DNA of 44,357 nucleotides. It comes from an archaeon (GTDB lineage: Archaea > EX4484-52 > B79-G9). The stretch covers positions 1 through 44,357 of the forward strand of contig JBDRKP010000042.1 in the NCBI GenBank assembly GCA_043813875.1, written 5' to 3'. Position 1 is the first letter of the stretch. Every line of letters begins with the position of its first letter. Position numbers: made by a program. This document shows positions 21,001 to 24,000 of this stretch, one piece after another.

Positions 21001-24000
21001 AGGAGGCGCCGAGGGTCATCGGGAAGGATGCGCTCAAGGCCGGAGGGAATATCTTTTCGCGGATCGCCCGCGAGGGAAGGAAGTTCAGGGTCGGACTTAC
21101 TGCCATCACGCAGCTCCCGAGCCTTATCCCAAAGGAGATCCTTGCCAATATGAATACGAAGATAATTCTTGGGATTGAGATGGCTGAGGAGCGGAGGTCT
21201 GTCATCGAGTGCGCTTCGCAGGACCTTTCTACTGATGAGCGCAATATCGCAAGCCTTGATAAGGGGGAGGCGCTTGTGACGTCCAATTTCACGAAGTTCG
21301 CGATGCCGATATATGTGCCGTTTTTTGATGAGTATATCAAGGACAAGGTCAAGAAGCCGGGTGTAAAGAAGGATTTCAGCGGGATTTTGTGAAGTTGAGC
21401 AATCCTGCTACGAAGCCTGCTACGTAGCCGTCGCCTGCGCCGACTGACATGCCGTCGCCAATGTATTTTATGCCCGGGACCCATGAGATACTGTAGCCGG
21501 TATTGTTTGTGATCTCTTCTTTGTGGAGTTCTATAATCCTAAATTGTTTTCTTAATTCTTTCTGGCCCATGTATCTTCCGGTGATGTAGCGCGCGCTCCC
21601 TTCAAGGTGGCCGAGGACCTGGGCTTTTTCTATGCCTTGACATGGTTTCTTTGAGAGGGCGAGGCTTCCTTTGAGTGTGTGGATGAGCAGTATCGATGAG
21701 GGCTTCATGCAGTGCCTGTGGTAGGCGGCTGCGCCTTCGACGATGCCTGTGACGCCGGTCATCGCTTTTAGTTCTACTTCGTTCATGCCTACGATGTCGG
21801 CGTGTTTTGATACTTTCCTGCAGTTGTCTTCTGCCATGCGGGAGCCGGAGCCAAGTTCTATGTAGAGCTTTGATTTTTTTGAGATGTTCTTAACTCTTTT
21901 TAATAATTCTTTCTGGACGGATTCTTTCTTCGCGTCTAGGTGGGCGCCGGAATATACTGCAAAATCGCTTTCATTATCTACAAAATCGACAAGTTCCGGC
22001 TCTTCTGTGCCGTAGTCGGGCGAGATTATGAACCTGTCGCCGTCTTCTTTTACCTGCACTATGAGGTGGTGGGCGGCTTCGTCTAATGAGGAGTTCACTG
22101 TGCTGACGCCGGCGGATTTCAGTTGTTTTATCATGTCTTTTGTCGCTCTTTTTACGTTGAGGTCCGTGATGTTGCCGAGTGATGTGAGGCCGAGCGATAT
22201 GTTGGTGGAGTTGCCGCCAAGTATTACTTTTTCTTTTAGAGGGATGTCTTTTAGCCTTGTTATGGCTTCGTTTATGAGATGGATGTCGCGGTTGTATTCG
22301 CGGTAGGACTGGCTTTTGAGGGCGCGGGAGGCGATTTCGTCAAAGACGGGGTTGATTTTCATGTTTGCTAAATGCTCTTTTGAGATGCTGAAGACGTCGT
22401 CGTAGTTCGCGATGCCGTATACGGCTATCTTTTTCGGGTTGAGGGCGGTTTTCAGGACTATCCTGTATAGTGCGAGGTTATCTTTTGCCATAGGCTATTT
22501 ATCGACGATAAAGTATATATGTGTTAAAACAGAGTCGCATGGACAATGATTTTTTGTATCATAGAGGGTTTATGGCTGTAAAAAGACTCATATATATTTA
22601 AAAGTTTCGATGTCATATTAGAATAATTCTTTATATTACCGGTCCCGTAGCTCAGCTGGTTAGAGCGTTGGTCTTATATGACGCGCAGGTAATGCCTGTG
22701 TCTCGATAACCACTTGTGTTATCGGCTTTCGGCTAAGACAGCCAAAGGTCCTGGGTTCAAATCCCAGCGGGACCACTATTTTCTATTTTTATGCAGGAAA
22801 TATTGAAAAAACTAGTTCTGTTGATATATTTTGTCGTGATGATCATAATCCAGGAAAACAACAAGTCCATCATTTTCTCTGATTGAAAAAGTAAGCACAA
22901 ATGAATCGATATGAACTCTCCTTATACCTTTCATGCTATATCTGAGCGGTTTGTATGTAGAAGGATCAAGGGCAATTTCATTCATTTTTTTGATAATTCG
23001 CTCATATTGTTTTTTGTCCTTTTTCAGCAATTTGGTTAATTTCCTCTCCAGTGAGGGCTGAAGCAGTATATGATATGGCATAACGTATCGCCACTCTTTA
23101 TTCGACTCCAGCTTTTTGCTTTAAATATTTGTCCATATCAGCAATAGTTTTAAATTTTCGTCCCTTCTGCTTTTGGATGCGTTCCAGCTTGCGCAGATAC
23201 GCAGGATTTACATCCCTGTGCAAGTCATGATCTATTTCATTCATTGTTTGCTCAATGACGTTCATTTTTGTCATTAAAAGTGATACATCACCAGCTACTT
23301 TTTTTAGAAGCTCAGATTCAGCCATTTTACCACCAATCATTATTTCGTATTAATCATTAAAAAGCTTATAGGCCATTCCAGTATTCATCCGTCTCTGCCC
23401 AGTTCTTTTTTTGCGTGATATTCCTTTGCCTGTTTCGGATAGTATATCCAGCCGATTTTGCTCTCGGAGTCAATGGATATCTTTCTCGAATACAAGAGAT
23501 AGTCAATTATGACGCAATAAGTCTGGTACATCATCCTTTTGGGGAGGGATTCCCAAAGCTTACTCTTTTTGAATTCGCCATCATGTTCCTTTATAAATTC
23601 CTCTACCATCAGCACAGTATCCAGACGCGGGTATCTCAAAATGTTGTCTTTGTTCATTAATTCTGTTTCCATGTTATATCTATTGATATAATAAATATTT
23701 AAAGATTTATACTAACCTCGTTATAAAAATTGGAATCAATTGATTGTGTAACTAAGTGAACTGATTTTGTATGGGTCTCGGCGGGACCACTAGTATTCTA
23801 GTTCACTTACTTCTGATAATGTGGGGTTTAAACTCTGAAAATCTTCACAAACTCATCAGAAACATACAGATAACTTCAAATAGTTTCATCTACTATTGTA
23901 TGATTTATTGATGACTATCATGGTGCCAAAAAAATTTCTTTTTGTAACGCTTGAAAACCTATGCGGAGACCTTGCATGGCATATCTTAAAAGAGGGACAT

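What a model noticed while it worked through the whole genome (the two positions that open the first line are those of the whole stretch)
22641..22776. AUA read by an intron-bearing tRNA-Ile(UAU) in a phylum without TiaS
The genome has a tRNA-Ile with the anticodon UAU (61-nt intron in the anticodon loop) and no gene for agmatidine synthetase TiaS, the enzyme that nearly all archaea need to read AUA with a modified CAU anticodon. TiaS is missing from all 42 genomes of the phylum, although AUA is the commonest isoleucine codon here. So the lineage decodes AUA in the way known so far from Nanoarchaeum and Korarchaeum.
Evidence so far: The Rfam alignment shows the anticodon loop CUUAUA at 61.5 bits, and ARAGORN calls tRNA-Ile(tat) i(39,61). 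TiaS_FLD PF08489 is found in 0 of 42 genomes of the phylum (0 of 10 that are >=90% complete), while the control search finds it in 4 model archaea. There is no TiaS row in the Pfam, NCBIfam or Swiss-Prot tables. The same tRNA 5' half with UAU is found in 5 of 7 genus relatives and 1 genome of another family by a strict pattern. There are 17,194 ATA codons against 14,778 ATC and 7,735 ATT in whole genes. A paper search for TiaS+DPANN gave 1 unrelated paper.
(Added by a program. Inside this text positions count along the whole contig: contig position 1 is position 1 of the stretch shown here. "Call 12" and the like, gene names such as g00115 and contig names such as C1 are that model's own, and its searches are not shown. 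The text may have been shortened before it was handed on; [...] marks where a part breaks off. The agent that wrote the report below was given it as the finding of a first reader that could run no searches.)

Follow-up and report, generated by a model that had tools for sequence, protein, structure and literature searches.

The report
Intron-bearing tRNA-Ile(UAU), TiaS-less archaeal phylum
This is a real isoleucine tRNA gene with a UAU anticodon and one spliceable intron, which most likely reads the very common AUA codon in a small-genome archaeal lineage lacking the usual enzyme TiaS; other tiny archaea are already known to do this, so it is a solid new example and not a new mechanism.

Summary
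Window 22641-22775(+) is a tRNA (Rfam 61.5 bits) with anticodon TAT at 22675-22677 and a 61-nt intron at 22679-22739, at the canonical 37/38 site. The intron sits in a bulge-helix-bulge whose 4-bp central helix is fully paired.

The body resembles the genome's tRNA-Ile(GAU). Neither TiaS domain model (FLD, TCKD) reaches its cut-off in any of 42 genomes of the phylum. TilS is absent from the own genome. ATA is the commonest Ile codon (42.6%) and behaves as Ile in Elp3 orthologues.

That covers 8 of 8 families and 10 of 10 genomes at least 90% complete. The 37/38 intron was confirmed in 27 genes.

The novelty claim is overstated. Fujishima 2011 (PMC3239211) already reported tRNA-Ile(UAU) without TiaS or tRNA-Ile(CAU) in ARMAN-2/-4/-5. 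None of the 10 such genomes I tested has TiaS. This scan has also reported the same thing before on other DNA.

Two things stay open: the U34 modification, and a hidden CAU tRNA, since only about 27-30 tRNAs are detectable.

Verdict: new member of a known kind.

The parts
22641..22678 (+). 5' exon of tRNA-Ile(UAU): acceptor 5' strand, D arm, anticodon stem 5' strand, and loop C32-A37
   Evidence: Rfam alignment, ARAGORN, sequence
22675..22677 (+). anticodon TAT (UAU), positions 34-36
   Evidence: The exon motif CTTATA is invariant in all 30 phylum copies.
22679..22739 (+). 61-nt intron at the canonical 37/38 site
   Evidence: ARAGORN i(39,61). Bulge-helix-bulge geometry read by hand and compared across 27 relatives.
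22734..22737 (+). intron TAAG, the 3' strand of the 4-bp central BHB helix, pairing with C32 U33 U34 A35. It is followed by the 3-nt bulge AC|A, which holds the 3' splice site.
   Evidence: sequence. The same position pairs at 4 of 4 bases in 13 relatives and 3 of 4 in 14, of 27 relatives.
22740..22775 (+). 3' exon: nt 38, anticodon stem 3' strand, variable loop, T arm, acceptor 3' strand, discriminator A73
22590..22603 (+). A/T-rich stretch (atatatatttaaaa) 38-51 nt upstream of the mature 5' end. Candidate archaeal TATA-like promoter element; inferred, not tested.
   Evidence: sequence. The sigma-70 scan does not apply to archaea.
22776..22795 (+). T-rich trailer (two oligo-T runs). Candidate archaeal terminator; inferred. 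No CCA is encoded.
   Evidence: sequence

Best explanation
The locus is a functional archaeal pre-tRNA gene. Its transcript folds so that loop nucleotides C32-A35 pair with the intron's TAAG. This puts both splice sites in 3-nt bulges of a bulge-helix-bulge motif. The genome's splicing endonuclease EndA cuts after A37 and before A38, and ligation gives a 7-nt anticodon loop with anticodon UAU. The body is isoleucine-type, with A73 and an acceptor stem and D arm like those of tRNA-Ile(GAU), so IleRS charges it with Ile. It pairs with AUA by a U34-A pair. That makes the usual archaeal route (tRNA-Ile2(CAU) plus agmatidine made by TiaS) unnecessary, and the whole phylum has lost or never had TiaS. 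Shown here: the gene, the intron position and its conserved geometry, no detectable TiaS or TilS, heavy AUA use with Ile meaning, and conservation of the tRNA across the phylum. Inferred: splicing, charging by IleRS, and how AUG misreading is avoided. For U34 my best guess is an Elp3-dependent xm5U-type modification, possibly 2-thiolated (about 45%). Elp3 and an NcsA-like thiolase are encoded. The alternatives are unmodified U34 as in Mycoplasma mobile (about 30%) and pseudouridine as in eukaryotes (about 15%).
For: tRNA model at 61.5 bits against a gathering score of 29. ARAGORN calls Ile(tat) i(39,61). The central helix has 4 of 4 Watson-Crick pairs in this gene. Of 27 evaluable phylum copies, 13 have 4 of 4 and 14 have 3 of 4. 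Nt 38 is A in all, and introns run 37-100 nt with divergent sequence. The chance of at least 3 of 4 pairs is about 0.14 per random 4-mer (my arithmetic). Acceptor stem GGTCCCG against GGTCCGG, an identical D arm and A73 shared with tRNA-Ile(GAU) at C26:3837-3944; 73% identity after removing the introns, against 66% to the elongator CAU tRNA. Only two CAU tRNAs were found. C76:2539-2656 is the initiator (A1-U72, three G-C pairs in the anticodon stem). C28:5087-5161 has the unrelated acceptor GCCGAGG. Across the phylum the CAU pattern never finds more than one tRNA-like match per genome. TiaS FLD and TCKD: 0 of 42 over the cut-off, with controls positive in 4 of 4 model archaea. TilS: best TIGR02432 hit 63.8 bits against a cut-off of 93.6, and that protein is TtuA/NcsA-like; PF09179 gives 0 hits. 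ATA is 42.6% of Ile codons, 36.9 per 1000 codons. At the 10 ATA positions of the own Elp3 gene, 23 orthologues outside the genus carry ATA 40%, ATT 26%, ATC 12% and Val 10%; Met is not among the six commonest residues. ATG positions keep ATG at 43%. The UAU tRNA is in 30 of 42 genomes, 8 of 8 families, and 10 of 10 genomes at least 90% complete. EndA is present (96.3 bits; N-terminal and catalytic domains). Elp3 is present at 680.8 bits against a cut-off of 350 and in 37 of 42 phylum genomes.
Against: Only 27 (ARAGORN) or 25-30 (Rfam) tRNAs are detectable in a 91.5% complete genome. No tRNA was called for Asn, Asp, His, Lys, Pro, Trp or Tyr. A CAU tRNA hidden by unusual introns therefore cannot be excluded. 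The thermodynamic fold of the isolated anticodon arm plus intron does not adopt the BHB (-26.0 kcal/mol free against -17.5 when constrained to it), so the splice sites rest on geometry and comparison. ARAGORN places the intron differently in 7 relatives and calls them Ser(tga), which shows that automatic intron placement is ambiguous. Twelve of 42 genomes, all 57-89% complete, show no UAU tRNA with my queries. There is no expression or splicing evidence: no usable RNA run. A TiaS too diverged for both Pfam domain models is not formally excluded. The U34 modification is unknown. Elp3 and NcsA are general U34 enzymes and say nothing specific about this tRNA.
Confidence: 0.85

Rival explanations
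1. A conventional tRNA-Ile2(CAU) also exists in this genome, hidden by non-canonical or multiple introns or lying in an assembly gap. It would be modified by an unrecognised enzyme, leaving the UAU tRNA redundant or minor.
For: About a third of the expected tRNA set is undetected. Relatives carry tRNAs with 2-3 introns that pattern searches miss. The genome is 91.5% complete in 90 contigs.
Against: No TiaS domain in 42 genomes and no TilS. The CAU pattern finds at most one elongator-type CAU tRNA per genome in 24 of 42 genomes. My structure-aware scan finds only the two known CAU tRNAs with a T arm. The UAU tRNA is kept in 10 of 10 high-quality genomes.
Confidence: 0.06
2. The gene is real, but the mature anticodon is not UAU because splicing happens at other positions. 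ARAGORN's alternative in relatives gives UGA.
For: ARAGORN relatives Ser(tga) with the intron 2-3 nt further 5'. The BHB is not the minimum-free-energy fold.
Against: The body has no long variable arm, so it cannot be tRNA-Ser. The exon motif CTTATA is invariant in 30 copies while the introns diverge. The symmetric BHB register places the cuts at 37/38 in all 27 evaluable copies. ARMAN-2 pre-tRNA-Ile(UAU) with the same layout is cut correctly in vitro (PMC3239211).
Confidence: 0.03
3. AUA has been reassigned (for example to Met, as in some mitochondria), and the UAU tRNA serves that new meaning.
For: None beyond the unusual anticodon.
Against: In Elp3 orthologues ATA exchanges with ATT and ATC, not with ATG. 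The tRNA body is Ile-like.
Confidence: 0.01

Closest known systems
tRNA-Ile(UAU) of ARMAN-2, -4 and -5 (Fujishima et al. 2011, NAR, PMC3239211; passages read)
   Same: Small-genome archaea with tRNA-Ile(UAU) and without tRNA-Ile(CAU) or TiaS. The ARMAN-2 gene also has an intron at 37/38 in a strict hBHBh' motif.
   Different: The intron here is 61 nt (37-100 nt in the phylum) against 25 nt. The acceptor stem differs. This genome has a single-unit EndA of 237 aa with one N-terminal and one catalytic domain, not the three-unit epsilon2 enzyme of ARMAN-2. Here the trait is shown across a whole phylum of 42 species genomes.
tRNA-Ile3(UAU) of Nanoarchaeum equitans and Korarchaeum cryptofilum (PMC8450103 and PMC6000648, passages read)
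   Same: A UAU anticodon replaces tRNA-Ile2(CAU). The Korarchaeum gene is intron-bearing and close to its tRNA-Ile(GAU), as here.
   Different: A different lineage. Those are single genomes, whereas here there is lineage-wide conservation. The TiaS status of those two rests on the cited papers and was not tested here.
Canonical archaeal AUA decoding: tRNA-Ile2(CAU) with agmatidine made by TiaS
   Same: Same task: read AUA as Ile and not AUG.
   Different: No TiaS FLD or TCKD domain was detected, and no third CAU tRNA was found. The wobble base is U, not a modified C.
Mycoplasma mobile tRNA-Ile2(UAU) (Taniguchi et al. 2013, PMC3575796, passages read)
   Same: TilS/TiaS-independent AUA decoding by a UAU anticodon. 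It shows that an unmodified U34 can work.
   Different: Bacterial and without an intron. Its U34 was shown experimentally to be unmodified, while here the state of U34 is unknown. 102 of the 120 loci are such bacterial-type genes.
Eukaryotic cytoplasmic tRNA-Ile(UAU), with pseudouridine at the wobble position (PMC3575796 introduction). Intron-dependence of that modification is recalled and comes from no call.
   Same: A UAU anticodon gene with an intron next to the anticodon.
   Different: No evidence here for pseudouridylation or for any intron-dependent modification. Introns at 37/38 are common in this genome whatever the anticodon.

Membership tests
tRNA (Rfam RF00005) | Cloverleaf sequence and structure scoring above the gathering score | tested here: met
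   61.5 bits against 29, model positions 1-71
Archaeal intron-containing pre-tRNA (BHB substrate of EndA) | Two 3-nt bulges separated by a 4-bp helix, placing the cuts at 37/38 | tested here: met
   C32-G, U33-A, U34-A and A35-U pair with intron 22734-22737; the bulges are UA|U and AC|A. Of 27 relatives, 13 have 4 of 4 pairs and 14 have 3 of 4. Caveat: the BHB is not the minimum-free-energy fold of the isolated arm.
Archaeal intron-containing pre-tRNA (BHB substrate of EndA) | A splicing endonuclease is encoded | tested here: met
   PF01974 at 96.3 bits, C67:38221-38502(-). The ORF is 237 aa with N-terminal and catalytic domains.
Isoleucine tRNA | An Ile-box anticodon and a body shared with the genome's other tRNA-Ile | tested here: met
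   Anticodon UAU, A73, 6 of 7 acceptor pairs and an identical D arm shared with tRNA-Ile(GAU)
Isoleucine tRNA | Charged with Ile by IleRS | not testable with these tools
   Needs an aminoacylation assay
TiaS-independent AUA decoding (tRNA-Ile3(UAU) type) | TiaS absent | tested here: met
   PF08489 and PF22641 give 0 hits in the own genome (91.5% complete) and 0 of 42 over the cut-off in the phylum. Controls are positive in 4 of 4 model archaea. The weak TCKD hits are other proteins.
TiaS-independent AUA decoding (tRNA-Ile3(UAU) type) | tRNA-Ile2(CAU) absent | tested here: inconclusive
   Only an initiator and one elongator-type CAU tRNA were found, and at most one per genome in the phylum. However, only 25-30 tRNAs are detectable in the genome.
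TiaS-independent AUA decoding (tRNA-Ile3(UAU) type) | AUA is used and means Ile | tested here: met
   ATA is 42.6% of Ile codons. ATA positions in Elp3 align with ATT, ATC and Val in orthologues, not with ATG.
Canonical TiaS/agmatidine system | A TiaS gene (TCKD kinase domain plus FLD) | tested here: not met
Bacterial TilS/lysidine system | TilS N-terminal domain over its cut-off, plus the TilS substrate-binding domain | tested here: not met
   TIGR02432 best hit 63.8 bits against 93.6. Those proteins score best as TtuA/NcsA. PF09179 gives 0 hits.
Eukaryote-type intron-dependent anticodon pseudouridylation | Pseudouridine at 34/36 installed on the intron-containing precursor | not testable with these tools
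   Needs modification mapping

The most novel reading that the evidence does not exclude
The 37/38 intron of tRNA-Ile(UAU) is confirmed in 27 phylum copies. The other 3 of the 30 UAU genes were not evaluable (a gene cut at a contig end, a 3' exon not found, and one not fetched), and none of the 30 was seen without an intron. The intron always pairs with C32-A35, although its sequence and length (37-100 nt) drift. The bold reading is that it is retained because the anticodon is modified on the unspliced precursor, as recalled for eukaryotic tRNA-Ile(UAU). This would be an archaeal counterpart, or forerunner, of the eukaryotic route that keeps a UAU anticodon from reading AUG.
Probability: 0.08. 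Interest if true: 0.65.

Novelty: new member of a known kind. Interest (0 to 1): 0.25.

Why it matters
The finding adds a whole archaeal phylum (42 species genomes) to the lineages that read AUA with a genomically encoded UAU anticodon instead of agmatidine. Together with my broader scan, it suggests that this route is the rule among small-genome archaea. In the papers I could read it appears as a curiosity of two to five genomes. Annotation pipelines should expect tRNA-Ile(UAU) and no Ile2(CAU) in such genomes. They should also note that these genes are easily missed or mis-typed because of their introns: the default ARAGORN run missed this one, and with introns allowed ARAGORN mis-typed 7 relatives as Ser. 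The open biochemical question is how U34 avoids reading AUG without a known restricting modification. That question is not made more tractable here, because the organism is known only as a metagenome bin.

Tried and rejected
1. Two home-made tRNA scanners, meant to find tRNAs hidden by odd introns, were too noisy to give an inventory. One keyed on the T arm plus acceptor, the other on the 5' half plus acceptor. From I use only the result that just two CAU candidates have a proper T arm.

2. A D-arm regex over the genome found no further Ile-like tRNA body.

3. A minimum-free-energy fold of the anticodon arm plus intron does not give the BHB. I therefore rely on geometry and comparison.

4. I looked for a box C/D guide that could 2'-O-methylate U34, meaning the complement of the anticodon loop placed before CTGA. 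There were 3 hits, none with a box C, which is about what chance gives. I saw no box C/D motifs in the UAU intron by eye.

5. Expression and splicing: the look-up of sequencing runs listed 14 runs. Only one was RNA, and it held 0.04 of the words. Read laying was not run, so there is no evidence either way.

6. An Rfam E-value search of window 32950-33400 for the long-intron tRNA called by ARAGORN gave only an 18-bit match of the T arm to an unrelated family.

7. Paper searches for 'DPANN'+'agmatidine' and 'DPANN'+'UAU'+'tRNA'+'isoleucine' found 0 papers. So I found no phylum-level survey in the open library. Subscription journals are not covered.

Its counts are lower bounds, not frequencies.
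Full report
**Observation.** The window holds a tRNA at 22641-22775(+). Rfam RF00005 scores it at 61.5 bits (gathering score 29) over the whole model, with a 62-nt insert after the loop letters CUUAUA. The genome-wide run repeats this. The default ARAGORN run misses it. With introns allowed, ARAGORN calls tRNA-Ile(tat) [22641,22776] i(39,61). From the sequence:
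- The anticodon TAT is at 22675-22677 and A37 at 22678.
- The intron is 22679-22739 and nt 38 (A) is at 22740.
- The discriminator A is at 22775. No CCA is encoded.
- A T-rich trailer follows the gene, and an A/T-rich stretch lies 38-51 nt upstream.
- No ORF of 70 aa or more overlaps the gene.
- The neighbours are unrelated to tRNA biology: a PfkB-family kinase, a ParE-like ORF, a HerA-type helicase and PurD.

**Splice sites.** Intron placement decides the anticodon, and ARAGORN placed it differently in 7 relatives, calling them Ser(tga). I therefore checked the bulge-helix-bulge geometry by hand. C32, U33, U34 and A35 pair with intron TAAG (22734-22737). The 3-nt bulges UA|U and AC|A flank this 4-bp helix. 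A short outer helix follows (G-C, mismatch, C-G, G-C). The symmetric cuts fall after A37 and before A38, giving a 7-nt loop with anticodon UAU.

In 27 evaluable copies from the phylum, the central helix has 4 of 4 pairs in 13 and 3 of 4 in 14. Nt 38 is always A, and intron length runs from 37 to 100 nt with divergent sequence. A random 4-mer would reach 3 of 4 pairs with probability about 0.14 (my arithmetic). The copies are related, so this is not a formal test.

Against this, the minimum-free-energy fold of the isolated arm plus intron does not form the BHB (-26.0 against -17.5 kcal/mol when constrained). A Ser reading is excluded by the lack of a long variable arm.

**Identity and the CAU tRNAs.** The body matches the genome's tRNA-Ile(GAU) at C26:3837-3944:
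- The acceptor stems share 6 of 7 pairs.
- The D arm is identical, and both have A73.
- Identity after intron removal is 73%, against 66% to the elongator CAU tRNA.

Only two CAU tRNAs were found. C76:2539-2656 has A1-U72 and three G-C pairs in the anticodon stem, which are initiator features. C28:5087-5161 has an unrelated acceptor stem. A structure-aware scan found no other CAU candidate with a T arm. Across the phylum, the CAU pattern never gives more than one tRNA-like match per genome; it matches in 24 of 42 genomes, and the two extra matches are visibly not tRNAs.

The caveat is serious. Only 27 (ARAGORN) or 25-30 (Rfam) tRNAs are detectable in this 91.5% complete genome, so a hidden CAU tRNA cannot be excluded.

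**No TiaS, no TilS.**
- TiaS_FLD: no match in the own genome. In the phylum, 0 of 42 are over the cut-off; 6 of 42 have weak matches of 11.8-16.5 bits over 30-55 residues.
- The three 11-bit TCKD matches lie in a class-V aminotransferase, an FttA-type beta-CASP nuclease and a THUMP protein.
- No genome has weak matches to both domains.
- Both models ring over their cut-off in all four model archaea.
- TilS: the best N-terminal match is 63.8 bits against a cut-off of 93.6. That protein and a second one score best as TtuA/NcsA thiolases. The TilS substrate-binding domain gives nothing.

**AUA is common and means Ile.** In 605 ORFs of at least 300 aa, ATA is 10831 of 25427 Ile codons (42.6%), ahead of ATC (9841) and ATT (4755). 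I also compared the 10 ATA positions of the own Elp3 gene with 23 orthologues outside the genus. These were taken from the 30 loci fetched, of 37 genomes with a match. The orthologues have ATA 40%, ATT 26%, ATC 12% and Val codons 10%, and Met is not among the six commonest residues. At ATG positions, ATG is kept at 43%. AUA is therefore an ordinary Ile codon here.

**Spread in the phylum.**
- A pattern for the D arm plus CTTATA finds tRNA-like matches in 24 of 42 genomes. A 25th genome and a second hit in one genome are spurious.
- A looser pattern adds G017, G020 and G031.
- BLAST with the gene adds G016, G037 and G038.

The total is 30 of 42 genomes, 8 of 8 families, and 10 of 10 genomes at least 90% complete. 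The 12 without a match are 57-89% complete. All 27 copies that could be evaluated have the 37/38 intron. The f8 copies have a second intron in the T loop. The f7 copies have three introns (D loop, 37/38 and T loop).

**Beyond the phylum, and the literature.** Fujishima et al. 2011 (PMC3239211, passages read) state that ARMAN-2, -4 and -5 possess tRNA-Ile(UAU) and lack both tRNA-Ile(CAU) and TiaS. They also show in vitro splicing of the ARMAN-2 pre-tRNA-Ile(UAU), which has a 25-nt intron at 37/38. Wang et al. 2018 (PMC6000648) and the tRNAscan-SE 2.0 paper (PMC8450103) list Nanoarchaeum and Korarchaeum.

- 102 are bacterial-type, mostly from candidate-phyla-radiation bacteria, Planctomycetes and Streptomyces.
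- 18 are archaeal-type. Their record titles name Woesearchaeota (7), Micrarchaeota (4), Pacearchaeota, Nanoarchaeota, Iainarchaeum and a few oddly labelled bins.
- 13 of the 18 have an intron at 37/38, and 5 have none (4 Micrarchaeota-titled and one unclassified archaeon).
- TiaS_TCKD is over the cut-off in 0 of the 10 of these genomes that I tested (their completeness is not given).

Earlier notes of this scan report the same thing in Woesearchaeota, Iainarchaeota and Asgard genomes. Two paper searches for DPANN-wide treatments found nothing.

**Mechanism and what is unknown.** Transcription, BHB cleavage by the single-unit EndA, ligation, CCA addition and charging by IleRS are all inferred. 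The unsolved point is how U34 avoids reading AUG. The genome encodes Elp3 (680.8 bits; present in 37 of 42 phylum genomes) and an NcsA-like thiolase. An xm5U or s2U-type U34 is therefore possible but unspecific. M. mobile shows that an unmodified U34 can suffice. I found no box C/D guide for U34.

The intron is not special to this tRNA. Fourteen of the 27 ARAGORN calls in the genome have introns. The elongator tRNA-Met has one in 21 of 24 relatives; the script flagged 23, and by eye G037 and G038 have a mismatched stem and no intron. Five UAU genes outside the phylum lack an intron. An intron-dependent modification therefore remains only a low-probability idea.

**Verdict.** The mechanism is already known from ARMAN, Nanoarchaeum and Korarchaeum, and it appears routine in small-genome archaea. 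This is a new member of a known kind, of modest interest.

Noticed in passing
By eye, the 5' half ends in a loop reading CTCCAG, so it could instead be tRNA-Trp(CCA). The insert holds TGATGA, CTGA and GATGAT motifs, like the box C/D-bearing tRNA-Trp introns recalled from other archaea. Rfam does not call it. The anticodon assignment is unresolved.
   Followed up: partly
whole genome G000 (e.g. C39:392-448, C12:24022-24087, C32:14955): Only 25-30 tRNAs are detectable in a 91.5% complete genome. No tRNA was called for Asn, Asp, His, Lys, Pro, Trp or Tyr. Several partial matches look like tRNAs interrupted at non-canonical sites, for example an Asn(GUU)-like 5' part that breaks off inside the T loop.
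   Followed up: partly
L194 (G037:C25, about 79380-79660, -), L195 (G038:C73, about 11322-11560, +), L026-L028 (G039-G041): The tRNA-Ile(UAU) genes of family f7 carry three introns (D loop, 37/38, T loop), and those of f8 carry two (37/38, T loop). They escape ARAGORN and simple patterns.
   Followed up: partly
L030-L048, L051-L053 (elongator tRNA-Met(CAU) genes of relatives); own copy at G000 C28:5087-5161: In 21 of 24 relatives the elongator CAU tRNA has an intron. In the 8 I displayed, its 5' part is complementary to the tRNA's own anticodon loop and is followed by a CTGA/ATGA-like and then a GATGA(T/C)-like motif. By the usual fifth-nucleotide rule (recalled) this would aim 2'-O-methylation at C34. 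That fits an elongator Met identity and not Ile2. The own genome's copy has no intron.
   Followed up: partly
G000 C67:38221-38502 (-), ORF L182:1474-2187 (-): The only splicing-endonuclease gene found is a single-unit protein of 237 aa (one N-terminal and one catalytic domain), lying next to tRNA-Phe. Yet the phylum has introns in D and T loops, which are recalled to need broad-specificity enzymes. A second, structural subunit may have escaped the search.
   Followed up: partly
window 22812-23081 (-) and 23098-23340 (-): Directly downstream of the tRNA lies an 89-aa ParE-family ORF (29.1 bits), preceded by an 80-aa ORF with no family. This may be a toxin-antitoxin pair.
   Followed up: no
L059-L178 (genome contigs): Genomically encoded tRNA-Ile(UAU)-type 5' halves are common in bacteria.
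   Followed up: no
L152, L165 (genome contigs): Two bins titled Methanosarcinales and Methanobacteriota carry DPANN-like intron-bearing tRNA-Ile(UAU) genes. L165 is almost identical to the Iainarchaeum-titled L119. Their genomes are only about 0.9 and 0.4 Mb, and neither has TiaS_TCKD over the cut-off. Their titles may be mis-assignments.
   Followed up: no
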